From: an uncultured Candidatus Saccharibacteria bacterium
GTDB taxonomy: Bacteria; Patescibacteriota; Minisyncoccia; Phycocordibacterales; CALRHW01
Direction: 5' to 3'
Length of the DNA: 54,008 nucleotides
Assembly (NCBI GenBank): GCA_964407105.1
Contig: CAYOUG010000001.1
Location: forward strand, 230,273 to 284,280
Within the stretch, counting starts at the first letter, position 1; every line of letters begins with the position of its first letter. The position numbers and the translations under genes were made by a program. Below the pieces are notes generated by a model that did no database searches, had not been told where the DNA came from, and worked only from the letters and a program-made list of their open reading frames with translations. Of this stretch, positions 11,917 to 27,219 are shown in pieces.

Positions 11917-12729
11917 ATGGCTATATTACTAAATGGAAAAGTGGCTCGCGACAGTCTCACAAAAGAGCTTGTTTTTTCAATACAAAAACTTTCATACAAA
12001 CCACACCTCGCCATTATTCAGATTGGTGATAAAAAAGAATCTAATACATACATTCGTCAAAAAAAGATTTTTGGTGAAAAAATTGGTGCACAAATTTCAC
12101 ACATCATTTTTCCTGTTGATGTTTCTCTAAAAGAGGTGACTGATAAAATTACACATCTCAACACAGATCCATGTGTGCACGGTATTATTGTGCAACTTCC
12201 GTTACCAGAAAACTTTTCTAAGTCTAAAATAATTGAAACAATTACGCCCCAAAAAGATGTAGACGGACTAACTTCGTCACACATTCATACACCGGCGACC
12301 GCAAGAGGTATCATTTCTCTTCTTGATTTTTATAATATTAAAATTGACGGCAAGAAAGTGGTTGTGGTGGGGCGTTCGGATTTGGTGGGTAAACCCACAG
12401 CTTTGGCACTTCAAAAACGCAGAGCGATGGTCACCATATGTCATAGCGGTACTTTAGATCTTGTTTCAGAAACCAAACAAGCGGAAATTATTGTTGTTGC
12501 TGTTGGTAGACCAAATCTTATTACAGCCAAACATGTCTCTGGGGGACAGGTGATTGTGGATGTTGGAATAAATACTATGGAAGATTCAAAAATAACAGGT
12601 GACGTTGCGTTCAATGAAGTAGAGCCAATAGTGCAATCTATTTCTCCAGTTCCCGGTGGTGTGGGTCCTATGACCGTTTTATCTCTTTTCCAAAATTTGC
12701 TCGATGCGTGTATGATACAGGTGGAGTAA
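11917..12729 (+). CDS. folD: Bifunctional methylene-THF dehydrogenase/cyclohydrolase
   Basis: YIRQK, HGIIVQLPLP, KDVDG, VVVGRSDLVGKP, SPVPGGVGPMT. Confidence 0.96.
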   Translation: MAILLNGKVARDSLTKELVFSIQKLSYKPHLAIIQIGDKKESNTYIRQKKIFGEKIGAQISHIIFPVDVSLKEVTDKITHLNTDPCVHGIIVQLPLPENFSKSKIIETITPQKDVDGLTSSHIHTPATARGIISLLDFYNIKIDGKKVVVVGRSDLVGKPTALALQKRRAMVTICHSGTLDLVSETKQAEIIVVAVGRPNLITAKHVSGGQVIVDVGINTMEDSKITGDVAFNEVEPIVQSISPVPGGVGPMTVLSLFQNLLDACMIQVE

Positions 12730-14725: not shown

Positions 14726-15271
14726 ATGGCACGACAAAAAATAGAGGAGGGCCGAAATTGGTATGTGATTCACACATACGCAGGATACGAAAATGCGGTG
14801 ATGCGAAACCTCAAACAACGCATCGAGTCTTTGGGCATGGAAGACAAAATTTTTAATGTTATCGTTCCTACCGAAAAGAAAATTAAAATTAAAGGGGGCA
14901 AGCGAGTAGAAGAAGAAGAGAAAATTTATCCAGGATACATTCTTGTGGATATGCTTGTAACAGACGACTCATGGTATGTCGTGCGAAACACTCCTCGCGT
15001 AACAGGCTTCGTGGGCTCCGGTGTGTATCCTGTACCTATTGATAAAAAAGAAGTTGAAGATCTTTTTAAACGAATGAATGCAGATACTGCAAAACACAAT
15101 ATCGATCTTTCTACCGAAGATACAGTGAAAATTGTAGACGGCCCATTTAAAGATCTTGAAGGAAAGGTAAGTGCAGTGGATAACGAACGTGGCAAGGTAA
15201 AGGTACTTGTGGCTATGTTTGGTCGCGAAACTCCAGTCGAGCTCGATTTCTTGCAAGTAAAGAAGATTTAA
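14726..15271 (+). CDS. nusG: Transcription termination/antitermination factor NusG
   Basis: WYVIHTYAGYE, KIYPGYILV, VVRNTPRVTGFVG, KOW VKIVDGPF, MFGRETPVEL. Confidence 0.98.
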   Translation: MARQKIEEGRNWYVIHTYAGYENAVMRNLKQRIESLGMEDKIFNVIVPTEKKIKIKGGKRVEEEEKIYPGYILVDMLVTDDSWYVVRNTPRVTGFVGSGVYPVPIDKKEVEDLFKRMNADTAKHNIDLSTEDTVKIVDGPFKDLEGKVSAVDNERGKVKVLVAMFGRETPVELDFLQVKKI

Positions 15272-15290
15272 GGTAAGGTAATTCACACAT

Positions 15291-15716
15291 ATGGCAAAGA
15301 AAATAACCAAAAAACTAAAGCTCGTTATTCCAGCAGGTAAAGCAAATCCAGCACCTCCAGTGGGTCCTGCGCTCGGACAAGCCGGTGTAAATATCGGAGA
15401 GTTTGTTAAGCGTTTTAATGATGAGACAAAAGACAAAATGGGAGACGTAATCCCAGTTGAGATTTCAGTATACGAAGACCGAACATTCTCTTTTGTTCTA
15501 AAAACTCCTCCAGCTACAAATCTTATCCTCAAAGCAATCGGTATTGAAAAAGGTTCTGGAACAAACAAAGCTAAAAAAGCCGGAAAAATCTCTAAGGCAA
15601 AAATTCGAGAGATCGCAGAAAAGAAAATGGTTGATCTTAATGCTCATGATGTGGAGGCGGCAATGAAAATTATTGCTGGGTCTGCACGGTCAATGGGTGT
15701 GGAGGTTGTTGACTAG
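15291..15716 (+). CDS. rplK: 50S ribosomal protein L11
   Basis: [36 protein letters not shown]. Confidence 0.98.
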
Positions 15717-15723
15717 GTGAAGT

Positions 15724-15840
15724 ACAAAACTCCTGTGCTATATTCCGAAAACCACGCGTCAATCGCTGGTGCGATTGCTGCTACGCTCGGCGCCGTCGCG
15801 CCTGCGCGATGCTTTTCGTAACATAGCACAGGAGTTTTGT
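15724..15840. repeat. Palindromic element, related type (18-bp perfect IR around multi-hairpin GC core)
   Basis: ACAAAACTCCTGTGCTAT...ATAGCACAGGAGTTTTGT enclosing CAATCGC-TGGT-GCGATTG and GGCGC-CGTC-GCGCC; between convergent rplK and dfr. Confidence 0.85.
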
Positions 15841-15841
15841 T

Positions 15842-16363
15842 TTACCTGCTTAAATCTACCCACAAATAACTCGGTGAAGATTCTGGGTGATCTTCTCGCC
15901 AGATTTCTTTTTTAAACTCTGCATAATCTGGGAAAAAGGCGTCGGCTTCTTTGTCGCCATCAATGAGAGTGAGATGGAGAACGTCCGCAAAAGGGAGCGC
16001 TTGATTGTAAATTTCCGCGCCACCGATGATAAAAATTTTTTGCTCGGCACCATCATTTTTTTCTTCAGCATGTTGCGTTTCAATACTTCGCGCTCGATCA
16101 AGTGCGTCTTCAAGTGACGTCGTTACAACACACCCCGGCGCCGCATAGTCTGCATTTCTAGTGATAACAATATTTGTGCGGTTGGGAAGCGGGCAGCCAA
16201 TAGATTCGTATGTTTTGCGTCCCATGATAATAGGGTGTCCGGTAGTGAGCGCTTTAAAACGCTTTAAATCCTCCGGAATTTTCCAGAGTAATTCATTGTG
16301 AAAACCAAGTCCTCGATTGTTTTTTTGAATAGCGGCAATAATATGAATTTTTGGCAATGACAT
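15842..16363 (-). CDS. folA: Dihydrofolate reductase
   Basis: GLGFHNELLWKIPEDLKRFK, IIMGRKTYESIG..LPNRTNIVITR, IFIIGGAEIY; start 16363 (alt. 16405). Confidence 0.96.
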   Translation of the reverse strand: MSLPKIHIIAAIQKNNRGLGFHNELLWKIPEDLKRFKALTTGHPIIMGRKTYESIGCPLPNRTNIVITRNADYAAPGCVVTTSLEDALDRARSIETQHAEEKNDGAEQKIFIIGGAEIYNQALPFADVLHLTLIDGDKEADAFFPDYAEFKKEIWREDHPESSPSYLWVDLSR

Positions 16364-16437
16364 TTTTGGTTTTGGTTGTAATTTGACCCACCGTAACCCC
16401 TTCATTATACTTAGGGCAATTAATAAAACCAAACCGC

Positions 16438-17031
16438 ATGTCGCATATTCTTGTAAAAAAAATTCTTGGTCCAGAGACACATTTAAAAGAGCGTTTTATT
16501 CCGGATTTTTCTACACTTTCAAAAATACTCGCCGATCTTCGAAAACAGGGAAAGAAAATTGTGCTCACGCAAGGTGTGTATGATCTCATTCACGAAGGTC
16601 ACGCACTGTATTTAGAAAAAGCAAAAGCATACGGTGATGTGCTTGTGGTGGGCGTGGATTCAGATGAGCTCACACGTGCTCGCAAGGGTCCAAACAGACC
16701 AATAGTGCCGGAGTCGGAGCGTGTCAAAATGCTTGTGCATTTGCGTCACGTAGATATTGTGACGATTCGCGAACTTAAACATGATCTTGGCGACCTCATT
16801 CGTCTGGTGAAGCCGGATGTGCTCATTACATCTTTTAGTACTGCAGATTTTACGACTGAAATGAAAAAAATGTACAAAGATTATTGCAAAAAAATTGTGA
16901 CACTTGCGCCACAGGCCACCACGTCTACCACTGCGCGCATTCGCAATCTCACGATAGAAGGTGCCGAAGAGCTTGCAAAAGAAGTACTCAAACTTACCAA
17001 CGGTTTTTTGAAAAAAATTAGAAAGATGTAA
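16438..17031 (+). CDS. Cytidylyl/adenylyltransferase family protein (RfaE-II/TagD-like)
   Basis: QGVYDLIHEGH (HxGH), LVVGVDSD, KGPNRP, C-terminal TSTT. Confidence 0.9.
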   Translation: MSHILVKKILGPETHLKERFIPDFSTLSKILADLRKQGKKIVLTQGVYDLIHEGHALYLEKAKAYGDVLVVGVDSDELTRARKGPNRPIVPESERVKMLVHLRHVDIVTIRELKHDLGDLIRLVKPDVLITSFSTADFTTEMKKMYKDYCKKIVTLAPQATTSTTARIRNLTIEGAEELAKEVLKLTNGFLKKIRKM

Positions 17032-17061
17032 CGCGGAGTAATAATTGCGAAGAATAATATA

Positions 17062-17955
17062 ATGACTAAAACTCTCATTGCATATATCCCCGCACTTCAT
17101 AGTGGCTATGTTAATTTTTTTAAAAAGTATGCGGGCGAGACTTTGTATATTTTAGATTTAAGTTTGGTGCGAGAAATTCCAAGGCTTGAGCGTGACATTC
17201 GCGCGCTTGAAGCGGGGGATATGAAAAAGCTCATTGGTGCGCTTGGAATTTTTTCACGCGTGGGGGTGGTGACGAAAGAAAATATGGCCGAGTTTTTGAT
17301 GGAGGCGCAGGGTGATACAAGAGATTCTGGCGCAAAAAATACTAACACGATCGTGATGCCGGATGAAGATGTGAGTCATATTTTTGCTGAAACATATTTA
17401 ACGGGAAAAGATATGTTTGGCGCGACAAAAGAAATTGAATATGTCTCTGTGTTTTTGCGATGGGACAGACTTGCCGCACTTAAAACTGATGTACCAACAA
17501 ACCCAGACAGAATCATTTCTCGCGACGCATTCGACAAAGAAATAATGGCTCGTGCATTTGCTGATGCACAAAAAAGTTCAGATTGGTGGCGACAGGTGGG
17601 TGCGGTGGTAGTGAAAGACGGCAAGGTGCTTTTTATAGGACACAATCATCCGTTGCCGTCTGATCAGACACACAATGTCACCGGCGATCCACGTAGCAAC
17701 TTTGACGCCGGTGTGAGTATCGAACTTTCAAAATTTTTACATGCTGAAGCGGGCATTATTGCCGAGGCTGCAAAGCGGGGCGTGACGCTCGATGGTGCCT
17801 CTATATATGTCACAACATTTCCATGTCCGGTGTGTGCAAAATCTATTGCCACTGCGGGTTTTAAAAAAGTGTATTACTGCGAAGGCTATTCGCTTCTCGA
17901 TGCGGAGGATATTTTAAAGGGGTTTGGGGTTGAGCTTATTCAGGTCGAGAGGTAA
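17062..17955 (+). CDS. dCMP deaminase/ComEB-like protein with long N-terminal extra domain
   Basis: C-terminal RQVGAVVV, HAE, PCPVC Zn motifs; N-terminal ~150 aa beginning IAYIPALHSGY. Confidence 0.9.
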   Translation: MTKTLIAYIPALHSGYVNFFKKYAGETLYILDLSLVREIPRLERDIRALEAGDMKKLIGALGIFSRVGVVTKENMAEFLMEAQGDTRDSGAKNTNTIVMPDEDVSHIFAETYLTGKDMFGATKEIEYVSVFLRWDRLAALKTDVPTNPDRIISRDAFDKEIMARAFADAQKSSDWWRQVGAVVVKDGKVLFIGHNHPLPSDQTHNVTGDPRSNFDAGVSIELSKFLHAEAGIIAEAAKRGVTLDGASIYVTTFPCPVCAKSIATAGFKKVYYCEGYSLLDAEDILKGFGVELIQVER

Positions 17956-18092
17956 AGACATGTTTGACAATATTTTTTCTTTATGTTATGAATTTATATG
18001 GAACAAGCAAGAATTTTCTTGGAACTGATACGGCAGATTTCCGAAAGTGTATGGTGGGTCTCGCACACCAACAACAAAAGAAAGGAAAAAAG

Positions 18093-18662
18093 ATGAAACC
18101 AGTAATCCTTGATGTAGAAGGGAAAGTTGTCCCTAAAGGAGACAAAAAAAATAGGAGGTTTACACGGGTGTGGGACGGAGGCATCTTCACTGTGCCTCAT
18201 TACTACCATCACCAAAACGGATTCGCTGATTTTAGGATGGCGAATCCCAATCCGCTTTTCCGTGAGAACAAGTTGAGCATCCACGATGATCTCAATGATG
18301 ATCTCATCGAGCCAAGTTATATTCTGAGATCAGGCGTCAGGCTTCACGTAACGGTGTTCAGTCAAGTGGCGCAAAGAACCACTTTAGAAAAACGCCTAGA
18401 ATTTCTCGATGAGCAGGGGGCTGTTTATCCTGGCGCGCGGATTTTTCCTCTTATTTACCACCATTTGCCAAAATTCAGATCGTACGATTCGATCGATAGA
18501 AAGGGTCATCTCACAATCGGTTGTGATGGTTATCCTCTGGTGGCGACGTTGCGTTGTGGGGATCGAAGTGGAAACTTTGTTTTTGGTTTTGAGGAATGCA
18601 ATGGTGTATGGGGGCCCGACGATACCTTCAACCTATTACTTTGTTTCCGTGAGATCAAATAA
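18093..18662 (+). CDS. Hypothetical protein (ORFan; resembles a family expanded in Parcubacteria, tentative)
   Basis: ORF 17964..18662; start placed at ATG 18093 behind AGAAAGGA; C-terminal RLEFLDEQGA...FVFGFEE..W....LLLCF. Confidence 0.55.
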   Translation: MKPVILDVEGKVVPKGDKKNRRFTRVWDGGIFTVPHYYHHQNGFADFRMANPNPLFRENKLSIHDDLNDDLIEPSYILRSGVRLHVTVFSQVAQRTTLEKRLEFLDEQGAVYPGARIFPLIYHHLPKFRSYDSIDRKGHLTIGCDGYPLVATLRCGDRSGNFVFGFEECNGVWGPDDTFNLLLCFREIK

Positions 18663-18718
18663 AAAGGTGCACCTTCAACCTCTTGGGCCCCAGGCTTTAT
18701 CACCTGCGGTCCATTTTT

Positions 18719-19165
18719 TTACCCAATTCTTGCCACCACCGGCTCGTATCCCGTCTCTGTAGGGTCACTTGAAACAAGCTGTGCATGCAAATGTGCGACA
18801 CTTGCGCCGGTATATTTCGTATCTCCAAAACGCATAAAATATGTTGCGCCCGGAATATTGAATTCTTTTATTGCCCAGTTGATAAGCTCAAGTAGACCGA
18901 GTTGTGCCTCGGCAGAGATATCTTGCGTATGTTCAATATGATTTTTATGAATCAAGACAAAATGATTTTTAGTATTTTTATATGGATACATATTGCAGGT
19001 AATGAGCCAGTGGTCGTTTTCATGCAAGATCGGATTTTTGTGATAGAGCGCAAGTTGCTCTGGACAAAATGGACATACCTTATCTTCTTGAATTTTTTCA
19101 AGTACTTTTTTGTATTTGTCATTTTCACGATCTTGTGAATTATTTGGGTTTACAAAATTGGTCAT
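18719..19165 (-). CDS. HIT-superfamily protein, HxHxQ (GalT/Ap4A phosphorylase-like) type
   Basis: CPFC, NMYPY, GASVAHLHAQLV; start re-set to ATG 19165. Confidence 0.85.
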   Translation of the reverse strand: MTNFVNPNNSQDRENDKYKKVLEKIQEDKVCPFCPEQLALYHKNPILHENDHWLITCNMYPYKNTKNHFVLIHKNHIEHTQDISAEAQLGLLELINWAIKEFNIPGATYFMRFGDTKYTGASVAHLHAQLVSSDPTETGYEPVVARIG

Positions 19166-19211
19166 GGTGTGAAATGGAAAGCGTGTAAAAATATGTAATC
19201 GTTTTTGATAA

Positions 19212-20132
19212 TTAAATAGGGGTAGGAATGAGCATTTTTGGATGTGGGTCATAATCAGTGAGCACAAAATGTTCTGGTTTAAATTCAAAAATATCTGTGG
19301 TGTCGGTGTTGAGAGTAACAGTCGGCAATTTTTTCGGTTCGCGTTTTAGAAGCTCTTCTACTTTTTCATACTGACTTTCATAAATATGCGCATCGGAAAA
19401 TGTGTACACGATTTCTTTAAATGTGTAGCCGAGAATTTGTGCAATCATTGCACCAAACGCTGCGTACTGCACCATGTTGAATGGCACGCCAACAGGGAAG
19501 TCGCCTGAGCGCTGGAAGTGGTGAATCGACACTTCTTTTGATTCTGGAAATGCGAGCACGTGAATCCATCCGTGACACGGCGCTACCACGACACGACGCT
19601 TGAGATCTGAATGTTGAATTGTGTATTGTGGAATCCATGGAGAAATAAAATGTGTGCGAAGGTATGGTCGCTCTTTTATTTGCTTTATAACATTTTCAAT
19701 CTGATTAAACGGTGCACCTTCTGCGGTAGGGAATGTTGCCCACGCGGCACCGTATGATCCATCACCAAGATCTCCTTCAGGAAGTCCAAAGATATCACAT
19801 TTTTCTTTTGTCACCCATTTTTTCCACCAGTTGCATCCATATTTTTCAAGCTCGGCTTGTGTGCGAGCGCCGTGGAGAAATGCAAAATGTTCGGCAAGCG
19901 CGCCCGTAAAAAAGGTTCCAGATAAATCTCGCTCACCAATCACAGGAAAACCATTTTCAATCTGATAGCGAAGCTGAAGCCCCACAATCATTTTCGCTTT
20001 TTCGCCTTGCTTGTTACCCGCTAGTGTTCCATGAATGGGAATAATCTCGCGTCCTTCGCGTAAAATTTTTCGCAACGCATCTTGGTACTGTGAATCAATC
20101 GTTCGTTCTGAAATCGGTTTGAAATTCATCAT
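19212..20132 (-). CDS. thyA: Thymidylate synthase (divergent)
   Basis: APCH catalytic Cys, QRSGD, VPFN, DAHIY, C-terminal YDPHP...PTPI. Confidence 0.93.
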   Translation of the reverse strand: MMNFKPISERTIDSQYQDALRKILREGREIIPIHGTLAGNKQGEKAKMIVGLQLRYQIENGFPVIGERDLSGTFFTGALAEHFAFLHGARTQAELEKYGCNWWKKWVTKEKCDIFGLPEGDLGDGSYGAAWATFPTAEGAPFNQIENVIKQIKERPYLRTHFISPWIPQYTIQHSDLKRRVVVAPCHGWIHVLAFPESKEVSIHHFQRSGDFPVGVPFNMVQYAAFGAMIAQILGYTFKEIVYTFSDAHIYESQYEKVEELLKREPKKLPTVTLNTDTTDIFEFKPEHFVLTDYDPHPKMLIPTPI

Positions 20133-20252
20133 GAAAATGGTTTTTCTAGCGCCCTATTAGTAATCCTGTAATTGTACTATTTTTGGATATATAAAAGAAA
20201 TAGTGTGGGTGTGTTACACTATGTGCATATTTATTTGTTACAAAAAACGGCC

Positions 20253-21425
20253 ATGAAAGACAAACAGATTGAGAAATTAATTAAGGCGGAGATGAAACGA
20301 CAAGGAAGTGTTATCAATCTCATTGCGTCGGAAAATTATGTGTCAAAAGACGTGCTTGCGGCACTTGGCTCAGAGCTTACCAACAAATATGCCGAAGGGT
20401 ATCCGGGCAAAAGATATTACGGAGGACAGGCTGTGGTGGATCAAATAGAAATGCTTGCACAATCTCGCGCACTTTCACTTTTTGGTTTGTCGACTAAAAA
20501 TTGGCATGTAAATGTGCAGCCACTTTCTGGTTCTCCTGCAAACGTTGCGGTGTATCTTGCGCTCGTGCCAACACACGGAAAAATTATGGGAATGAGTTTG
20601 GATAGTGGGGGACATCTTACGCATGGACACAAAGTGTCGATGACAGGAAAAATGTGGGAGCAGGTGCCGTTTGAGGTAGATAAAAAGACCGAAGTACTTG
20701 ATTATGTATCACTCAAAAAGCGGGCTGTCGAACAAAAGCCAAACATTATCGTGGCGGGATTTACTGCATATCCACGTATTGTTGATTTCAAAAAATTTCG
20801 AGAAATAGCGGATTCTTGCAGTGCGTATCTTATGGTAGACATGTCGCATTTTGCTGGACTTGTGGCGGGTGGCGCATATCCAACTCCATTTAAATATGCA
20901 GATGTGGTGACGACGACAGTTCACAAAACATTTCGTGGTCCGCGTAGTGCAATGATTTTTGTGAAAAAAGATAAACGTGAACTCGACAAGCTTATAGACA
21001 AAGCTGTGTTTCCAGGCATGCAGGGAGGTCCGCATTTAAATCAAATAGCGGCGGTGGCTGTGGCGCTAAAAGAAGCAGCAACTCCAGCGTTTAAAAAATA
21101 TGCGGCGCAGGTGGTGAAAAATGCACAGGCACTTGCTGGTGAGCTTTCGCGACTTGGTTGGAAAATTATTTCAGGAGGTACAGATAGTCATTTGGTACTT
21201 GTCGATACTTGGATGGGAGGAAAAGGTCTTCCGGGAAAAGAGGCGAGTGCCAAGCTTGAAGCTGCGGGAATTATTGTGAATAAAAATACGATTCCGTACG
21301 AAACACGATCGCCGTTTGATCCATCAGGAATCCGTCTCGGTACTGCTGCAGAAACTACTATGGGCGCAAAAGAAAAAGATATGATTCGTGTTGCTCGGAT
21401 GATTGATACGGTGTTGAGGAAATAA
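20253..21425 (+). CDS. glyA: Serine hydroxymethyltransferase
   Basis: NLIASEN, KYAEGYPGKRYYGG, GGHLTHG, DMSHFAGLVA, TTTVHKTFRGPR. Confidence 0.98.
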   Translation: MKDKQIEKLIKAEMKRQGSVINLIASENYVSKDVLAALGSELTNKYAEGYPGKRYYGGQAVVDQIEMLAQSRALSLFGLSTKNWHVNVQPLSGSPANVAVYLALVPTHGKIMGMSLDSGGHLTHGHKVSMTGKMWEQVPFEVDKKTEVLDYVSLKKRAVEQKPNIIVAGFTAYPRIVDFKKFREIADSCSAYLMVDMSHFAGLVAGGAYPTPFKYADVVTTTVHKTFRGPRSAMIFVKKDKRELDKLIDKAVFPGMQGGPHLNQIAAVAVALKEAATPAFKKYAAQVVKNAQALAGELSRLGWKIISGGTDSHLVLVDTWMGGKGLPGKEASAKLEAAGIIVNKNTIPYETRSPFDPSGIRLGTAAETTMGAKEKDMIRVARMIDTVLRK

Positions 21426-21430
21426 TATAT

Positions 21431-21454
21431 GCGCGCCGTCCGAAGGCGGCGCGC
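21431..21454. repeat. Short GC-rich REP-like hairpin between glyA and dut
   Basis: GCGCGCCG-TCCGAAGG-CGGCGCGC, no T tract. Confidence 0.6.
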
Positions 21455-21461
21455 CACCTAA

Positions 21462-21890
21462 ATGTCACTTACACTTAGAATTAAAAAACTTTCAGCAGAT
21501 GTAACACTTCCACAATACGCGCATCGTGGTGATGCCGCGCTTGATCTGTATGCCAACGTCGCGGTAACATTGCAGCCTGGTGAAAAGACGGCAGTGCCGA
21601 CCGGCATTGCGATGGAAATTCCTGATGGCTACGTGGGCCTCATTTGGGATAAAAGCGGAATTGCGATAAAAGGTGGGCTTAAAACCCTTGGCGGGGTGGT
21701 AGACTCTACATATAGAGGAGAGGTGCTTGTGGGGATTATTAATCTTTCGCAGGAAGTATATACATTTGAACGCGGACACAAAGTAGCGCAGATGATTATT
21801 CAGAAAAAGGAAGACGTCGTGATAGAGGAAGTAAGTGAGCTGTCGGAGACCGCGCGCGGCGAAGGCGGCTTTGGAAGTACCGGCAAATAG
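21462..21890 (+). CDS. dut: dUTP diphosphatase
   Basis: GDAALDL, IWDKSG, GGVVDSTYRGE, VAQMII, RGEGGFGSTG. Confidence 0.98.
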   Translation: MSLTLRIKKLSADVTLPQYAHRGDAALDLYANVAVTLQPGEKTAVPTGIAMEIPDGYVGLIWDKSGIAIKGGLKTLGGVVDSTYRGEVLVGIINLSQEVYTFERGHKVAQMIIQKKEDVVIEEVSELSETARGEGGFGSTGK

Positions 21891-23609: not shown

Positions 23610-23673
23610 AAAGAAGATGGTTTTGGTCCATTTCTTTTTGTAAAAACCCTTAAAAGTGCTAGTATTTTGCTAT

Positions 23674-26600
23674 ATGAACGAACCAGAAAAGAAACCGGTT
23701 TCTAAAAGTCCATCTGCTCAGATTGAAGAAAAAATTCTTGCATCGTGGAAGGAAAATGATATTTTCAAAAAAACCCTTGAAAAGGAAGCTCCTCAAGGGG
23801 ACTTTGTTTTTTACGAAGGTCCTCCTACGGCCAACGGTAAGCCAGGTATTCATCATCTTGAAGCGCGTGCATTCAAAGATATTATTCCGCGATACAAAAC
23901 AATGCGTGGTTTTCATGTGACTCGAAAGGGCGGATGGGATACGCAAGGACTTCCGGTAGAGCTTCAAGTAGAAAAAAAACTAGGTTTGAAGTCTAAAAAA
24001 GAAATTGAAGCGTACGGCGTAGAAAAATTTAATGCACAGTGTAAAGAAAGTGTGTGGGAGTATGTGGATTTGTGGAAGCAATTTACAGATCGTATTGGCT
24101 ATTGGATTGATCAAGAAAATCCGTATGTGACGTATGAAAAAACATACATGGAAAGTGTTTGGAATATTTTGAAAACGGTTTCAGAGCAAAAGGTGGGTGG
24201 CGTGCTTGGTGTGGGTGGTAAGCCAATGCTCTACAAAGATTACAAAGTGGTGCCGTGGTGTCCGCGATGTGGGACGGCGCTTTCATCGCACGAGCTTGCG
24301 CAGGGGTATGAAGATGTAAAAGATTTGTCGGTGTATGTAAAATTTAAGTTGAAAAATCCAACAGAGATTGGATTATCTGGTGACGCATATTTTCTCGCGT
24401 GGACGACAACACCATGGACATTGCCTGGAAATGTAGGACTGGCGGTAGGGGAAGACACTTCATATGTGTTTGTAGAACACGAGAGTCAAATATATATTCT
24501 TGCTGAGTCTTTGTTACAAAAAATATTTAATGAAAAAGATTTTAAAAATATAAAAACTGTTTTAGGAAAAGATTTAGTGGGTTTGCAATACGAACCGCTT
24601 TTTCCATATCTTGTGCAAAAATTTGGTGATAAAAATCCTGAAGCATTTGCGCAGGCATACAAAGTGTATCCAGCGGATTTTGTGACGACGACCGACGGAA
24701 CAGGTATTGTGCACACGGCTGTGATGTATGGTCAGGAAGATTTTGAGCTGGGAACGAAAGTTGGTTTGCCAAAATTTCATCTCGTGCGCGAGGACGGACA
24801 TTTTATTGATGATATGGATTTTCTTTCAGGACGTTTTGTAAAAGAAAAAAATCAAGATGGAAAGCCGACGCTTGATGTAGATATTATTAGTGATTTAAAA
24901 ACAAGAAATCTTTTCTTCGCACAAGAAAATATAAAACATACATATCCGCATTGTTGGCGATGCAAAACGCCGCTCATCTACTACGCGCGCGATTCGTGGT
25001 ACATTCGCATGTCTGCGCTACGCGACAAACTTGTGGCAGAAAATGAAAAAATAAATTGGGAGCCGGGTCATATAAAAGAGGGGCGTTTTGGCGAGTGGTT
25101 GCGTGAGGCGAAAGATTGGGCGATTTCTCGTGAAAGATATTGGGGTACGCCACTTCCTATTTGGACAAATGAAGAAGGTAAAATGATAGTGATCGGCTCT
25201 GTTTCTGATCTTAAGACACACATTCCAAAACGTAATAATTTTATTCTTGTTCGTCATGGACAGTCAGAATCCAATGTCCAGGGTGTTATAAATTGCAATG
25301 TACACACAAAAGATTCTCTTACATCAGATGGTCTTACTCAAGCACAAAAAGCTGGTAAGATTTTGGTTAAAGAAAAAATTGACGTCATTATCACATCACC
25401 ATTTGCTCGCGCGCAAGAAACAGCAAAAATCATTGCACAAGAGATTGGTTTTTCTGGAGATATCATATCTGATGATCGTATTGGCGAACTTCAGGTGGGC
25501 GCGTGGAATGAAAAAACCTGGAGTGAATACGAAACACAATTTAAAAATCTAAAAGAACGCTTTACAAAACATCCACACGCAGAAAAGAGTGAGGGTGGGG
25601 TTGTTGAAAATTGGGAAGATGCGCGTCGACGTGTAGCGGAGTTTATGTATGATATCGACGCGCAATTTGAAGGTAAAAATATACTTTTGGTGGGTCATGG
25701 TGGCACACTTAATCTTATAGCCCTATCTTCTCTTGGATATTCTGTAGAAGAAATTGCTTTCCATTATTATGATAATTCTTTCAGCAATGCAGAGGTACGA
25801 AAAATAGATTGGCGGGCGTTGCCACACAATGCTTTGTATGAAATTGATCTACACAAACCTTTTATTGATTCTGTGGAACTTGTCGATGAAGCGGGAAACA
25901 AACTCACACGTGTAAAAGAAGTTCTTGATGTTTGGTTTGATTCTGGCGCTATGCCTTTTGCACAAAACCATTTTCCTTTTTCGAAAAATACAATGCAGTA
26001 TCCAGCAGATTTTATTTCTGAAGCGGTAGATCAGACTCGCGGATGGTTTTATACCTTACTTGCGATAGGTGTACTTATGGAAAAGGGAAGTGCTTATAAA
26101 AATGTAATTTGTCTCGGACACATTTTAGATGCACAAGGAAAAAAGATGAGTAAGTCGCTTGGAAATATTGTAGATCCTTGGATTATGATTGATAAGTATG
26201 GCGTTGATGCACTTCGACTTTGGATGTATGGCGTTAATCGACCCGGAGATTCTAAAAACTTTGATGAGCAAACTGTAGATGAGATTGTAAAAAAGGTATT
26301 TAATCCGCTCTCAAACATTTTTTCATTTTATGAAATGTATGCTGATAAGAGTGTGACATCGAGGCGCGACAGCACACATGTGCTCGACCGTTGGATATTG
26401 GCGCGCCTCGATGAACTTATTTTGCAAGGCACACGACATCTCGATGAGTTTCAGGTTTTTGAAGCGTCGCGTAGTATACGAGATTTTATTGGAGATTTTT
26501 CTACGTGGTATATTCGTCGATCACGTGACAGATTTAAGTCAGATGACATAGCAGATAAAAAAGCGTCACTTAACACAACCCACTTTGTGCTTCTATCTCT

Positions 26601-27219
26601 TGCTAAATATATGGCGCCGTTTGCACCATTTTTTGCTGAAGAACTTTATCGAAAGATGAATGGTGAGAAAGAAAGTGTACATCTTGATGCTTGGCCAGAA
26701 GTAAATGTGCAAGCTGTGGGCGATGTAATGATTCTTGAAGATATGAAAGAAGTGCGCGAACTTTCGAGTCGTGGACTTGAACTTCGCAATACTGCCGGCA
26801 TAAAAGTGCGTCAACCTCTTTCAAAATTTACAATTAAAAGTGCGCGTCTAGAAGGCCGAAATGATCTACTTTCTCTTGTTGCAGAAGAGTTGAATGTTAA
26901 AGAGGTAGTATTTGATGCTTCACTTGAAAATGAAGCACAACTCGACACCACTCTTACTGAAGCACTTAAAACAGAAGGACGATATCGTGAGGTTGTGCGA
27001 GCGGTACAGGATTTGCGCAAAAAAACAGGTTTAGAACCTCATGATTCTGCTAGGCTTCTAGTGAAAACCAACGCCGAAGGTAAATCATTAATTGAGCAAT
27101 ACAAAAAAGATCTTTCTTCAACATCTCTTCTAAAAGAAATTGTGTATCAAGAAGTAGGGGGGGATACATTTTCTGTTGATAATCTCTCGTTTGTATTTGT
27201 TGTTGAAAAAATAGTTTAA
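23674..27219 (+). CDS. ileS: Isoleucine--tRNA ligase (type 2) with inserted histidine-phosphatase domain
   Basis: EGPPTANGKPGIHH, GWDTQGLPVE, AWTTTPWTLPGN, DWAISRERYWGTP, DQTRGWF, KMSKS; extra RHG...GHGG domain ~25231-25830. Confidence 0.96.
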   Translation: MNEPEKKPVSKSPSAQIEEKILASWKENDIFKKTLEKEAPQGDFVFYEGPPTANGKPGIHHLEARAFKDIIPRYKTMRGFHVTRKGGWDTQGLPVELQVEKKLGLKSKKEIEAYGVEKFNAQCKESVWEYVDLWKQFTDRIGYWIDQENPYVTYEKTYMESVWNILKTVSEQKVGGVLGVGGKPMLYKDYKVVPWCPRCGTALSSHELAQGYEDVKDLSVYVKFKLKNPTEIGLSGDAYFLAWTTTPWTLPGNVGLAVGEDTSYVFVEHESQIYILAESLLQKIFNEKDFKNIKTVLGKDLVGLQYEPLFPYLVQKFGDKNPEAFAQAYKVYPADFVTTTDGTGIVHTAVMYGQEDFELGTKVGLPKFHLVREDGHFIDDMDFLSGRFVKEKNQDGKPTLDVDIISDLKTRNLFFAQENIKHTYPHCWRCKTPLIYYARDSWYIRMSALRDKLVAENEKINWEPGHIKEGRFGEWLREAKDWAISRERYWGTPLPIWTNEEGKMIVIGSVSDLKTHIPKRNNFILVRHGQSESNVQGVINCNVHTKDSLTSDGLTQAQKAGKILVKEKIDVIITSPFARAQETAKIIAQEIGFSGDIISDDRIGELQVGAWNEKTWSEYETQFKNLKERFTKHPHAEKSEGGVVENWEDARRRVAEFMYDIDAQFEGKNILLVGHGGTLNLIALSSLGYSVEEIAFHYYDNSFSNAEVRKIDWRALPHNALYEIDLHKPFIDSVELVDEAGNKLTRVKEVLDVWFDSGAMPFAQNHFPFSKNTMQYPADFISEAVDQTRGWFYTLLAIGVLMEKGSAYKNVICLGHILDAQGKKMSKSLGNIVDPWIMIDKYGVDALRLWMYGVNRPGDSKNFDEQTVDEIVKKVFNPLSNIFSFYEMYADKSVTSRRDSTHVLDRWILARLDELILQGTRHLDEFQVFEASRSIRDFIGDFSTWYIRRSRDRFKSDDIADKKASLNTTHFVLLSLAKYMAPFAPFFAEELYRKMNGEKESVHLDAWPEVNVQAVGDVMILEDMKEVRELSSRGLELRNTAGIKVRQPLSKFTIKSARLEGRNDLLSLVAEELNVKEVVFDASLENEAQLDTTLTEALKTEGRYREVVRAVQDLRKKTGLEPHDSARLLVKTNAEGKSLIEQYKKDLSSTSLLKEIVYQEVGGDTFSVDNLSFVFVVEKIV

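What the first reader, a model, noticed from the sequence alone, without database searches (positions are those of the whole stretch)
15842..21890. Thymidylate island with three extra nucleotide-transfer enzymes: possible non-canonical dTMP/salvage pathway
Seen: folA, an HxGH nucleotidyltransferase, a dCMP-deaminase-like gene, an HxHxQ HIT gene, thyA, glyA and dut cluster in 6 kb. The HIT gene is directly downstream of thyA, and the transferase is directly upstream of the deaminase. Established: folA/thyA/glyA/dut/dCMP deaminase form the dUMP-to-dTMP cycle; RfaE/TagD-like transferases and GalT/Ap4A-phosphorylase-type HITs are not part of it. Inference: the extra enzymes may make and break nucleotidylated intermediates (dinucleoside polyphosphates or NDP-X) to capture, channel or sanitise host-derived pyrimidine nucleotides in an organism with little de novo synthesis. 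This is the best protein-level candidate for an undescribed system here.
Basis: partly seen in the sequence, partly recalled or inferred. Interest (0 to 1): 0.8.

Follow-up and report, generated by a model that had tools for sequence, protein, structure and literature searches.

The report
Conserved CPR thymidylate cluster, unexplained partners
This is the normal gene cluster that a tiny uncultured (Parcubacteria/CPR) bacterium uses to make the DNA building block dTMP. In every relative examined it also carries a nucleotidyltransferase, an extra domain on the dCMP deaminase and a HIT nucleotide hydrolase, and these are sometimes fused to the textbook enzymes although their role is not described anywhere.

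Summary
The genes folA, an HxGH nucleotidyltransferase (NTase), a two-domain dCMP deaminase, a HIT protein, thyA, glyA and dut lie at 15842-21890. An unmentioned orphan ORF sits between the deaminase and HIT, and folD lies 3 kb upstream.

- In 80 species-level Parcubacteria loci, NTase and deaminase are adjacent in 80/80.
- HIT plus thyA follow in 70 of 71 informative loci.
- The median gene gaps are -1 bp and 3.5 bp.
- Fusion proteins exist: NTase::deaminase in 3 divergent clusters and DHFR::HIT in at least 14 loci.

So NTase and HIT are real partners of the deaminase and of ThyA/DHFR.

All catalytic residues of the textbook enzymes are canonical, so dTMP chemistry itself is ordinary. Module-linked ThyA always lacks Arg127. 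The HIT is Hint-like, not GalT-type. The NTase fits no curated equivalog (HldC, TagD).

What the partners do remains inferred. The most likely role is a make-and-break pair acting on the 5'-phosphate of the pyrimidine deoxynucleotide. No paper describing the module was found. It is a new variant of a known kind.

The parts
11917..12729 (+). folD (methylene-THF dehydrogenase/cyclohydrolase). A folate one-carbon gene 3 kb upstream; context for the cluster.
   Evidence: Pfam THF_DHG_CYH_C E 1e-54 and THF_DHG_CYH E 4e-29.
14726..15716 (+). nusG and rplK. This is the conserved chromosomal address after which the module sits.
   Evidence: ORFs. nusG and rplK lie upstream of the NTase in 46-47 of the 80 related loci and in the divergent loci L084-L094.
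15842..16363 (-). folA, dihydrofolate reductase. The ATG at 16363 is the likely start; the ORF extends to a GTG at 16480.
   Evidence: Pfam DHFR_1 E 8e-48, matching residues 45-191 of the long ORF. The position of folA varies among relatives.
16383..16411 (+). Promoter-like site (TTGACC-17-TATACT) 27 nt before the NTase start, in the folA/NTase divergent spacer.
   Evidence: Consensus scan, 10 of 12 matches. This is a consensus match only.
16438..17031 (+). HxGH nucleotidyltransferase (NTase), HldC/RfaE-domain-II-like, 197 aa.
   Evidence: PF01467 58.7 bits and TIGR00125 54.6 bits, both above cut-off. TIGR02199 (rfaE_dom_II) scores 107.8, below its 181.5 cut-off. The best PDB single-domain match is HldC 5x9q at 74 bits. 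Identity to 80 species is 58-75%, and 68 columns are invariant in 20 sequences.
17062..17511 (+). N-terminal domain of the deaminase (about 130-150 aa). It has alternating beta/alpha elements (Rossmann-like), a PxxHxGY motif, and three invariant Arg.
   Evidence: No Pfam or PDB sequence match. AF2 gives beta-alpha repeats with pLDDT mostly above 80. Invariant residues are P10, H13, Y16, R44, R47 and R133. hhalign against the NTase is collinear but marginal, P about 0.03. The domain is almost always attached to a deaminase.
17512..17955 (+). dCMP-deaminase catalytic domain (zinc-dependent, HAE / PCxxC).
   Evidence: PF00383 E 5e-19. The best Foldseek hits are dCMP deaminases 5c2o, 2hvv, 1vq2 and 4p9c, E about 3e-9, 28-34% identity. 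H227, E229, C255 and C258 are invariant in 75 sequences.
18093..18662 (+). ORF4, an orphan ORF (189 aa from the ATG; 232 aa from a TTG at 17964). It is inserted at the tail-to-tail junction of the two operons.
   Evidence: No hit in Pfam, NCBIfam, PADLOC, PHROGs, PDB, phage records or any of the 80 related loci. In relatives the junction has a median length of 4 bp and is an insertion hot spot.
18719..19165 (-). HIT protein, 148 aa, Hint-like, with a CPFC zinc-type motif and a conserved 30-aa N-terminal extension.
   Evidence: Profile against PDB finds bacterial HIT/Hint proteins. The AF2 model has pLDDT 95.4. Top Foldseek hits are Hint proteins, probability 1.0. C31, C34, H68, H76, R112, H125 and H127 are invariant. 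The third triad residue is H, Q or N.
19212..20132 (-). thyA, thymidylate synthase. It is canonical except at two phosphate-binding arginine positions.
   Evidence: TIGR03284 scores 160.4, above its 108.35 cut-off. PDB ThyA hits reach E 1e-40. The equivalents of C146, R126, R166, S167, D169, N177, Y209, E58 and W80 are invariant in 71 sequences and H207 is kept in 69. R127 is replaced by T in 69 of 71, and R21 is mostly lost.
20250..21425 (+). glyA, serine hydroxymethyltransferase. The ORF runs from a TTG at 20172; the likely ATG start is at 20250.
   Evidence: Pfam SHMT E 4e-159; NF000586 scores 524.9, above its 335 cut-off.
21462..21890 (+). dut, dUTP diphosphatase.
   Evidence: NF001862 scores 149.8, above its 103 cut-off; Pfam dUTPase E 3e-30.

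Best explanation
**Shown**
- This is the conserved thymidylate-synthesis cluster of Parcubacteria/Paceibacteria-type CPR bacteria.
- Its core is two convergent, tightly coupled two-gene operons: NTase -> (N-domain)-dCMP deaminase, and thyA -> HIT.
- folA, glyA and dut lie around the core.
- The textbook enzymes keep their catalytic residues. dTMP is therefore made by the ordinary route: a cytosine deoxynucleotide is converted to a uracil deoxynucleotide and then methylated, with GlyA, FolD and FolA running the folate cycle.
- NTase and HIT are obligate partners. NTase belongs with the deaminase and HIT with ThyA/DHFR.

**Inferred mechanism**
- NTase and HIT form a make-and-break pair on the 5'-phosphate of the pyrimidine deoxynucleotide.
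- The NTase is docked to the deaminase, probably through the possibly NTase-derived N-domain.
- It joins a nucleotidyl group to a phosphate. One version transfers dCMP from dCTP onto a phospho-acceptor. The other transfers AMP from ATP onto dCMP, as the related NMN and FMN adenylyltransferases do.
- The deaminase acts on that conjugate or on what it releases.
- The Hint-like HIT, beside ThyA/DHFR, cleaves the NMP-P-X bond. This frees dUMP (or dTMP) and recycles the handle.
- The net effect is a gated or channelled feed of cytosine deoxynucleotides into thymidylate synthesis.

**My odds**
- The partners are functionally integrated: about 0.85.
- They act as a make-and-break nucleotidyl pair: about 0.35-0.4.
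- Any one specific substrate assignment: 0.15 or less.
For: **Synteny**
- In 80 species-level loci spanning many Parcubacteria lineages (31-62% GC), NTase and deaminase are adjacent in 80/80.
- HIT and thyA are present in 70 of the 71 loci with enough sequence.
- Median gaps are NTase->deaminase -1 bp (n=74) and thyA->HIT 3.5 bp (n=70), which fits translational coupling.
- The core survives rearranged flanks: folA occupies at least five different positions, and the NTase/deaminase order is swapped in L044.

**Fusions**
- NTase::N-domain::deaminase occurs in three clusters that are only 37-38% identical to each other (P0313, P0391, P0392).
- DHFR::HIT occurs in L043, L084 and 12 metagenome loci, each carrying the full module, at 37-67% GC.

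**Enzyme competence**
- NTase keeps invariant HxGH and TSTTARIR motifs and many invariant Arg/Lys.
- HIT keeps an invariant nucleophile pair, H125 and H127.
- The deaminase keeps invariant HAE and PCxxC.

**Hints that the phosphate end is handled differently**
- Module-linked ThyA always lacks Arg127, giving an R-T/V/I-H signature. This also holds in the divergent loci L081-L084.
- The DCTD allosteric motif G(Y/W)N(A/G) (PMC12088426) has diverged to (G/A/S)(H/Y/F)N(R/K/H).
- The N-domain has three invariant Arg and an HxGY motif at the position of the NTase HxGH.

**Precedents, from my own knowledge of the families**
- NMNAT, FMNAT and cytidylyltransferases share the NTase fold.
- HIT-superfamily enzymes cleave Ap(n)N, NMP-X and CDP-alcohols.
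Against: - No experiment or metabolite supports any conjugate.
- Nature normally makes dCMP from dCTP with one simple pyrophosphatase, so a two-enzyme detour needs a reason that is not yet evident.
- Synteny in these reduced genomes is generally very stable. The unrelated nusG-rplK genes also keep their place beside the module, so adjacency alone overstates linkage.
- The loss of ThyA Arg127 need not change the substrate. L. casei TS mutant entries that align a Thr with the query's Thr rank among the best PDB hits, and from memory Arg179 substitutions are tolerated.
- The NTase donor nucleotide is unresolved. The best single-domain match is an adenylyltransferase (HldC), but cytidylyltransferases score close behind.
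- Homology of the N-domain to the NTase is only marginal.
- Whole-genome searches were shut, so no phyletic co-occurrence or missing-enzyme test was possible.
Confidence: 0.4

Rival explanations
1. Regulatory reading. The N-domain is a dNTP-sensing domain that replaces or supplements the classical dCTP/dTTP allosteric site of dCMP deaminases. NTase and HIT make and destroy a signalling nucleotide, such as a dinucleoside polyphosphate, or simply bind nucleotides. This tunes flux through the deaminase and ThyA rather than handling the pathway intermediates.
For: - Every reported DCTD is allosterically controlled through the G(Y/W)N(A/G) site (PMC12088426). That motif has diverged here.
- The N-domain has a degenerate HxGY in place of HxGH and three invariant Arg, which fits binding without catalysis.
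- CDADC1 shows that a fused inactive domain can replace classical allostery.
- HIT enzymes degrade Ap(n)N (own knowledge).
Against: - NTase and HIT keep complete catalytic motifs across all relatives.
- Pure regulators are rarely translationally coupled and fused to the enzymes in a 1:1 arrangement.
- No sensor or output element is evident.
Confidence: 0.15
2. Passenger reading. NTase and HIT have ordinary, unrelated housekeeping jobs. NTase would be an ADP-heptose, CDP-alcohol or FAD/NAD-type adenylyltransferase and HIT a generic Hint phosphoramidase. They stay beside the thymidylate genes only because gene order in these small genomes is frozen.
For: - The unrelated nusG-rplK, argS and ileS genes also keep their positions in many loci.
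- The NTase resembles HldC, ECT and TagD, and the HIT resembles generic Hint proteins.
- NTase is as conserved as ribosomal protein L11 (median 65% against 63%), as expected for a core housekeeping enzyme.
Against: - There are independent fusions of NTase with the deaminase and of HIT with DHFR.
- Start/stop overlaps are the rule.
- The four-gene core is kept while folA, glyA and dut move around it and the NTase/deaminase order can swap.
- NTase fails the HldC, HldE, TagD and PPAT equivalog cut-offs.
- No heptose or teichoic-acid gene was recognised among the window ORFs scanned against Pfam/NCBIfam.
Confidence: 0.15
3. Full carrier route. The pyrimidine stays attached to a handle (dNMP-P-X) through deamination and methylation. 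The arginine-depleted ThyA therefore methylates a dUMP conjugate, and HIT releases the thymidine nucleotide at the end, possibly by phosphorolysis.
For: - ThyA of every module-bearing locus lacks Arg127 and usually Arg21. These are two of the four phosphate ligands, which would suit a less charged phosphodiester.
- HIT is coupled or fused downstream of ThyA/DHFR rather than to the deaminase.
- DCTD-fold enzymes can act above the monophosphate level (PMC12088426).
Against: - The Arg127 substitution is reported to be tolerated in classical TS (own knowledge; TS mutant entries rank high).
- Arg126, Arg166 and Ser167 remain invariant.
- tmk sits next to the module in L071, so a dTMP-kinase bypass is not needed at least there.
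- dut is kept.
- There is no direct evidence.
Confidence: 0.15
4. Defence or DNA-modification reading. The long deaminase would be an anti-phage dCTP deaminase, or part of a modified-base pathway.
For: The deaminase core matches NF041025 (84 bits) and PADLOC dCTPase (83.8 bits).
Against: - The NF041025 score is far below its curated cut-off (84 against 400), and both matches cover only part of the protein, chiefly the catalytic core (PADLOC best stretch residues 219-291).
- There is no kinase-like N-domain.
- The cluster is a fixed core locus in every relative.
- ThyA has Asn177 (uracil type) in 71 of 71 sequences, and folA is present. This fits true thymidylate synthase chemistry.
Confidence: 0.03

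Closest known systems
Classical thymidylate-cycle gene sets (bacterial thyA-folA pairs; phage T4 cd-td-frd; the Gram-positive ComEB/dCMP-deaminase route with glyA and dut)
   Same: The enzymes and catalytic residues are the same: ThyA, DHFR, SHMT, dUTPase and a zinc dCMP deaminase. They are clustered for co-expression.
   Different: - An HxGH nucleotidyltransferase is always coupled to the deaminase.
- The deaminase has an extra domain of about 130 aa.
- A HIT enzyme is always coupled or fused to ThyA/DHFR.
- ThyA lacks Arg127.
- None of these features belongs to the described clusters, and no paper on them was found.
Human DCTPP1 -> DCTD -> TYMS route (dCTP pyrophosphatase feeding dCMP deaminase; PMC7162842 title and abstract)
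   Same: The logic is to bring dCTP down to the monophosphate level to feed deamination and thymidylate synthesis.
   Different: There a single all-alpha pyrophosphatase does the job. Here the candidate parts are a nucleotidyltransferase and a HIT hydrolase, and the reaction is only inferred.
Nucleotidyltransferase / HIT make-and-break pairs (CdsA/Cdh for CDP-diacylglycerol; aminoacyl-tRNA synthetase/Fhit-Hint for Ap(n)A and aminoacyl-AMP; NMNAT and FMNAT as AMP-to-nucleotide joiners). Named from own knowledge.
   Same: The folds and catalytic motifs are the same: HxGH plus ISSTxxR for the transferase, and HxHxx for the HIT.
   Different: No known pair is embedded in thymidylate synthesis or fused to dCMP deaminase or DHFR. 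The substrates here are unknown.
CDADC1, the vertebrate two-domain DCTD-like (d)CTP deaminase (PMC12088426)
   Same: A DCTD-fold catalytic domain is preceded by an extra non-catalytic domain. Classical allostery may be replaced, and the substrate may lie above the monophosphate level.
   Different: The extra domain of CDADC1 is a dead deaminase copy. Here it is an unrelated Rossmann-like domain with an HxGY motif.
Bifunctional DHFR-TS of protists and plants
   Same: Thymidylate-cycle enzymes are fused into one polypeptide.
   Different: Here DHFR is fused to a HIT domain, not to ThyA.

Membership tests
Cytidylyltransferase-like / HxGH nucleotidyltransferase superfamily (PF01467, TIGR00125) | Profile score above the curated cut-off, plus HxGH and ISSTxxR-type motifs. 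| tested here: met
   PF01467 scores 58.7 (cut-off 21) and TIGR00125 scores 54.6 (cut-off 27.7). H52, G54, H55, T162, T164, R167 and R169 are invariant.
HldC / RfaE domain II (ADP-heptose synthase) | Score at or above the equivalog cut-off (TIGR02199 181.5; NF008454 521). | tested here: not met
   Scores are 107.8 and 89.1 bits. The PDB HldC alignment covers only residues 40-132 and leaves out the acceptor-binding part. No heptose-pathway neighbours were seen.
TagD glycerol-3-phosphate cytidylyltransferase | TIGR01518 score at or above 165.4. | tested here: not met
   41.1 bits.
dCMP deaminase (DCTD/ComEB type) | CDA-fold zinc site (H-A-E and P-C-x-x-C), with dCMP deaminases as nearest structures. 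| tested here: met
   PF00383 scores 68.6 (cut-off 25). H227, E229, C255 and C258 are invariant. Top Foldseek hits are 5c2o, 2hvv, 1vq2 and 4p9c.
dCMP deaminase (DCTD/ComEB type) | Single-domain protomer of about 20 kDa with the G(Y/W)N(A/G) allosteric motif (PMC12088426); ComEB equivalog score at or above 219. | tested here: not met
   The protein has an extra N-terminal domain of 130-150 aa. The motif reads (G/A/S)(H/Y/F)N(R/K/H). TIGR02571 scores 59.7.
Anti-phage dCTP deaminase (NF041025 / PADLOC dCTPase) | Equivalog score at or above 400 and an N-terminal kinase-like domain. | tested here: not met
   84.2 bits, best stretch on the deaminase core. The N-domain has no P-loop and no kinase match.
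HIT superfamily | HIT fold with an HxHxx nucleophile motif. | tested here: met
   The AF2 model has pLDDT 95.4. Foldseek finds Hint proteins at probability 1.0, target-normalised TM up to 0.74. H125 and H127 are invariant. Pfam HIT scores 20.4, just under its 21.5 cut-off.
GalT / Ap4A-phosphorylase branch of HIT | HxHxQ motif as a family trait, and a duplicated or extended architecture of about 220-350 aa. | tested here: not met
   The third triad residue is H in 33, Q in 16 and N in 15 of 66 sequences. The protein is a single 148-aa domain. GalT (1hxp) is only a marginal hit at E 0.96, and Ap4A phosphorylase scores E 0.003, behind about 20 Hint-type hits.
Hint branch of HIT | HxHxHxx motif, a small single domain, and Hint proteins as nearest structures. 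| tested here: inconclusive
   The nearest sequences and structures are Hint-type. However, the third His is kept in only half of the family. There is also a conserved 30-aa N-terminal extension, and query-normalised TM is only about 0.5.
Thymidylate synthase ThyA (EC 2.1.1.45) | Equivalog score and catalytic residues (C146, R166, S167, D169, N177, H207, Y209, E58; E. coli numbering). | tested here: met
   TIGR03284 scores 160.4 (cut-off 108.35). All listed residues are invariant in 71 sequences, except H207, which is Gln in 2.
Thymidylate synthase ThyA (EC 2.1.1.45) | Four-arginine phosphate site (R21, R126', R127', R166). | tested here: not met
   R127 is replaced by T in 69, V in 1 and I in 1 of 71 sequences, followed by His. 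R21 is kept in only 3 of 71 by MAFFT, and aligns to Lys in the HMMER alignment.
HxGH nucleotidyltransferase fold (for the deaminase N-domain) | Detectable homology to the NTase or to any HUP-class family. | tested here: inconclusive
   hhalign gives a collinear alignment of 59 columns with HxGY on HxGH, but probability is 1.7-2.4% and P about 0.02-0.03. There is no Pfam or PDB hit.

The most novel reading that the evidence does not exclude
Patescibacteria may make thymidylate on a handle.
- The NTase would attach the cytosine deoxynucleotide through its 5'-phosphate to a carrier, as dCDP-X or an A-pp-dC-type dinucleotide.
- The N-domain deaminase and the arginine-depleted ThyA would both work on the conjugate.
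- The HIT enzyme fused or coupled to ThyA/DHFR would release the thymidine nucleotide.
- Free dCMP, dUMP and dUTP would never accumulate.

This would be a previously unknown architecture for one of the most conserved pathways in biology.
Probability: 0.15. Interest if true: 0.9.

Novelty: new variant of a known kind. Interest (0 to 1): 0.65.

Why it matters
dTMP synthesis is a textbook pathway and a drug target, generally regarded as fully mapped. Across this large radiation of uncultured bacteria, every related locus examined couples it, and sometimes fuses it, to three parts with no assigned role: a nucleotidyltransferase, a new domain on the deaminase, and a HIT enzyme.

Whatever they do, it is likely to be a missing piece of deoxypyrimidine metabolism or its control in CPR bacteria. 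The possibilities include substrate feeding from dCTP, channelling that keeps uracil out of DNA, and regulation.

The question is directly testable with four small soluble proteins expressed in E. coli. It would also give functions to two very large orphan families. The N-domain family alone has 595 clusters at 50% identity.

Tried and rejected
- **Whole-genome tools.** The genome search and the fetch from genomes were shut. No phyletic profile and no check for tmk, dcd, cmk or a dCTP pyrophosphatase in this genome could be made.
- **N-domain by sequence.** Pfam on 75 members and a profile against PDB gave nothing credible.
- **N-domain against the NTase.** hhalign is only marginal, even with 147- and 63-sequence alignments.
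- **N-domain by structure.** Foldseek on the full-length deaminase model returned only deaminase-domain hits.
- **GalT/Ap4A-phosphorylase reading of the HIT.** Rejected.
- **Defence (dCTP deaminase) reading.** Rejected.
- **dCMP-methylating (Asp177) ThyA idea**, raised for other genomes. It does not apply here, since Asn177 is present in 71 of 71 sequences.
- **ORF4.** No homologue in any library or related locus.
- **Literature.** Five full-text searches found no description of the module.

Full report
**What is in the window**

- folA lies at 15842-16363(-). The ORF runs on to 16480, but the DHFR match begins at residue 45.
- A 197-aa HxGH nucleotidyltransferase (NTase) lies at 16438-17031(+).
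- A 297-aa deaminase lies at 17062-17955(+). Its dCMP-deaminase domain occupies residues about 155-295. Its first 150 residues match nothing.
- A 148-aa HIT protein lies at 18719-19165(-).
- thyA is at 19212-20132(-), glyA at about 20250-21425(+) and dut at 21462-21890(+).

Three details were not in the finding.
- An orphan ORF (18093-18662, or from a TTG at 17964) sits between the deaminase and HIT.
- folD lies 3 kb upstream, at 11917-12729.
- The cluster follows secE-nusG-rplK and precedes argS-ileS.

A promoter-like site (TTGACC-17-TATACT, 16383-16411) precedes the NTase gene. This is a consensus match only.

**Is the arrangement conserved?**

A scan of one genome per species with an NTase alignment returned 193 relatives, of which the best 80 were kept. 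All are Parcubacteria/Paceibacteria-type MAGs, variously labelled Sungbacteria, Nealsonbacteria, Taylorbacteria, Kaiserbacteria, Liptonbacteria, Nomurabacteria, Minisyncoccia and others, with 31-62% GC.

tblastn with the window's proteins gave these results.
- The two-domain deaminase is next to the NTase in 80 of 80 loci.
- HIT and thyA follow in 70 loci.
- Of the 10 loci lacking HIT or thyA, 9 end within 1 kb of the deaminase. Only L005 has 3.6 kb of further sequence without them.

The order is NTase(+) deaminase(+) | HIT(-) thyA(-). The median gaps are as follows.

| Junction | Median gap | n |
|---|---|---|
| NTase stop to deaminase start | -1 bp | 74 |
| thyA stop to HIT start | 3.5 bp | 70 |
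| Tail-to-tail junction | 4 bp | 70 |

This is the pattern of two translationally coupled bicistronic operons. The window is looser, with gaps of 30 bp and 46 bp.

The core holds while its surroundings change.
- folA is found upstream of NTase on either strand, beyond thyA on either strand, or elsewhere.
- glyA and dut move.
- In L044 the deaminase precedes the NTase.

The tail-to-tail junction is an insertion hot spot. Twelve loci carry 0.4-4.8 kb there. The inserts include a second HIT paralogue (L007, L017, L030, L052), HicAB-like pairs and a GIY-YIG gene. The window's ORF4 has no homologue in any locus or library tried. I read it as one more such insertion.

**Caveat on synteny**

Gene order in these genomes is generally stable. 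The unrelated nusG-rplK genes keep their place beside the module even in distant lineages. Adjacency alone would therefore overstate functional linkage. Fusions give independent evidence.

**Fusion evidence**

A profile of the deaminase N-domain, searched against 1.84 billion representative proteins, found 595 families.
- Nearly all are N-domain plus deaminase proteins of about 280 aa, or fragments of them.
- One 469-aa protein (P0313) carries NTase, N-domain and deaminase in one chain.

Searching with P0313 found two more such fusions, P0391 (482 aa) and P0392 (493 aa). They are only 37-38% identical to P0313. In its contig (L081, 64% GC) P0391 is one continuous frame, lying divergent to a thyA-folA-HIT operon.

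On the other side, HIT is fused to the C-terminus of DHFR in several places.
- L043.
- L084.
- Twelve metagenome contigs, L085-L096, recovered with an alignment of the two fusions.

Every one of these loci, except the short contig L091 (which lacks thyA and the deaminase), carries the whole module. Their NTase is only 36-51% identical to the window's, their thyA 38-50%, and their GC ranges from 37% to 67%.

NTase is therefore tied to the deaminase, and HIT to ThyA/DHFR, well beyond the window's own lineage.

**The individual parts**

NTase:
- It passes only the superfamily models (PF01467, TIGR00125).
- It fails the equivalog cut-offs for HldC/HldE, TagD and PPAT.
- Its best single-domain PDB match is Burkholderia HldC (74 bits, residues 40-132). 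ECT, CCT, an archaeal homologue (3glv) and TagD come next.
- The donor nucleotide is therefore unresolved.
- It is as conserved as ribosomal protein L11 (median identity 65% against 63%). HxGH, TSTTARIR and about ten Arg/Lys are invariant.

Deaminase catalytic domain:
- It is a dCMP-deaminase-type CDA fold. The best Foldseek hits are 5c2o, 2hvv, 1vq2 and 4p9c, and HAE and PCxxC are invariant.
- The classical allosteric motif G(Y/W)N(A/G) (PMC12088426) reads (G/A/S)(H/Y/F)N(R/K/H) here.
- Matches to the anti-phage dCTP deaminase models are partial, with the best stretch on the catalytic core. The NCBIfam score (84 bits) is far below its curated cut-off of 400.

Deaminase N-domain:
- AF2 predicts alternating strands and helices (five strands, five helices) with good confidence.
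- The PxxHxGY motif sits at the first strand-helix junction.
- P10, H13, Y16, R44, R47 and R133 are invariant.
- hhalign against the NTase is collinear, placing HxGY on HxGH and ERDIR on RKGPNRP. It is statistically marginal, however (P about 0.03).
- A degenerate NTase copy is plausible but not shown.

HIT:
- AF2 pLDDT is 95.
- It is closest to Hint-type proteins by profile and by fold.
- The third triad residue is H in 33, Q in 16 and N in 15 sequences. The window's HxHxQ is therefore not a GalT-branch signature.
- C31, C34, H68, H76, R112, H125 and H127 are invariant, and a 30-residue N-terminal extension is conserved.

ThyA:
- It is a genuine thymidylate synthase (TIGR03284 above cut-off).
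- The equivalents of C146, R126, R166, S167, D169, N177, Y209, E58 and W80 are invariant, and H207 is kept in 69 of 71.
- Arg127 is replaced by Thr (rarely Val or Ile), followed by His, in all 71 module-linked sequences and in the divergent L081-L084 loci. Arg21 is usually absent.

**Interpretation**

Several points are shown.
- This is a core, vertically kept thymidylate cluster.
- The textbook chemistry is intact. Asn177 together with DHFR argues for real dUMP methylation.
- NTase and HIT are integrated partners.

The rest is inferred. Both extra enzymes belong to families that form (NTase) or break (HIT) a bond at a nucleotide's alpha-phosphate. NTase is stoichiometrically tied to the enzyme that takes in the cytosine nucleotide. 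HIT is tied to the enzymes that finish the pathway.

The most economical mechanism is a make-and-break pair.
1. NTase builds an NMP-P-X conjugate. Either dCMP from dCTP is put onto a phospho-acceptor, or AMP from ATP is put onto dCMP, as NMNAT and FMNAT do with their nucleotide acceptors.
2. The deaminase acts on the conjugate or on what it releases.
3. HIT cleaves the conjugate to deliver dUMP (or dTMP).

I give about 0.85 to functional integration, 0.35-0.4 to this general mechanism, and 0.15 or less to any particular substrate.

The bolder version has ThyA itself working on the conjugate, which the loss of two phosphate-binding arginines would suit. I give it about 0.15.
- Against it, I recall that Arg127-equivalent substitutions are tolerated in L. 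casei TS, and TS mutant entries that align a Thr with the query's Thr rank among the top PDB hits.
- tmk sits beside the module in L071, so a kinase bypass is not required there.

Rival readings are regulation by a nucleotide-sensing N-domain (0.15), passenger housekeeping genes (0.15), and defence or DNA modification (0.03).

**Novelty**

Five full-text searches found no description of the module, of the N-domain, or of the fusions.

Earlier notes of this scan, from many other Patescibacteria genomes, describe the same module and reach similar open conclusions. I treated them as leads.
- I re-derived conservation, the DHFR::HIT fusion and the ThyA arginine loss independently here.
- I did not test their report of a variant operon with an APH-fold kinase.

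I class the finding as a new variant of a known kind: an ordinary pathway with undescribed, obligate partners.

**Limits**

- Whole-genome searches were shut, so there is no phyletic co-occurrence or missing-enzyme analysis.
- No structure search of the N-domain alone was possible.
- Substrate identities cannot be obtained by computation.

Noticed in passing
window 23656-27219 (+): The isoleucyl-tRNA synthetase ORF (1187 aa) carries an in-frame insert of about 200 residues. The insert has histidine-phosphatase (phosphoglycerate-mutase family) motifs (…ILVRHGQSESN… and …LLVGHGG…), seen in the translation. An earlier first-reader note (e1-5218195) flags the same feature.
   Followed up: no
window 17964/18093-18662 (+): An orphan ORF (ORF4) is inserted at the deaminase|HIT tail-to-tail junction. 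It has no homologue in Pfam, NCBIfam, PADLOC, PHROGs, PDB, phage records or the 80 related loci.
   Followed up: partly
L007:7477-7911(-), L017:9464-9943(-), L030:4525-4992(-), L052:3118-3558(-): A second, different HIT paralogue (CPFC … NP..GH.LIIP.RH) sits downstream of the module's HIT in four species. HicAB-like pairs (L028, L045) and a GIY-YIG gene (L062) occupy the same junction. The junction is therefore an insertion hot spot.
   Followed up: partly
L081:3167-4711(-): On the 64%-GC contig that carries the NTase::deaminase fusion, the gene after HIT encodes a 514-aa protein. It has a PterinBD-DUF4346 domain (E 1e-15) and a weak thymidylate-synthase-like stretch (E 4.5e-4).
   Followed up: no
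L084:10700-12976(+): A 758-aa protein with a Thy1 (ThyX) domain lies directly next to thyA in a locus that also has the DHFR::HIT fusion. Both thymidylate synthase types appear to coexist there.
   Followed up: no
L082:1573-2412(+) and L083: In one lineage the NTase has a 280-aa N-terminal extension with a faint HD-domain match (E 0.008, below cut-off; motif …ICHDWGES…). It may be a phosphohydrolase domain fused to the NTase.
   Followed up: partly
   Followed up: partly
window 21431-21454 and 15794-15811: GC-rich hairpins flank the cluster. One (GCGCGCCGCC…GGCGGCGCGC, 8 G-C pairs) lies between glyA and dut. A related one lies between rplK and folA.
   Followed up: no
window 15842-21890 against the whole window: The cluster has 43.3% GC against 39.0% for the window. 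This is a mild version of the 'GC-rich cassette' that earlier notes report for the module in AT-rich relatives.
   Followed up: partly
L051:9415-10420(-): folA and HIT are adjacent but in different frames. folA ends …ETYLRR*, and the HIT homology starts 37 nt later. This may be a broken or recently separated DHFR::HIT fusion.
   Followed up: partly
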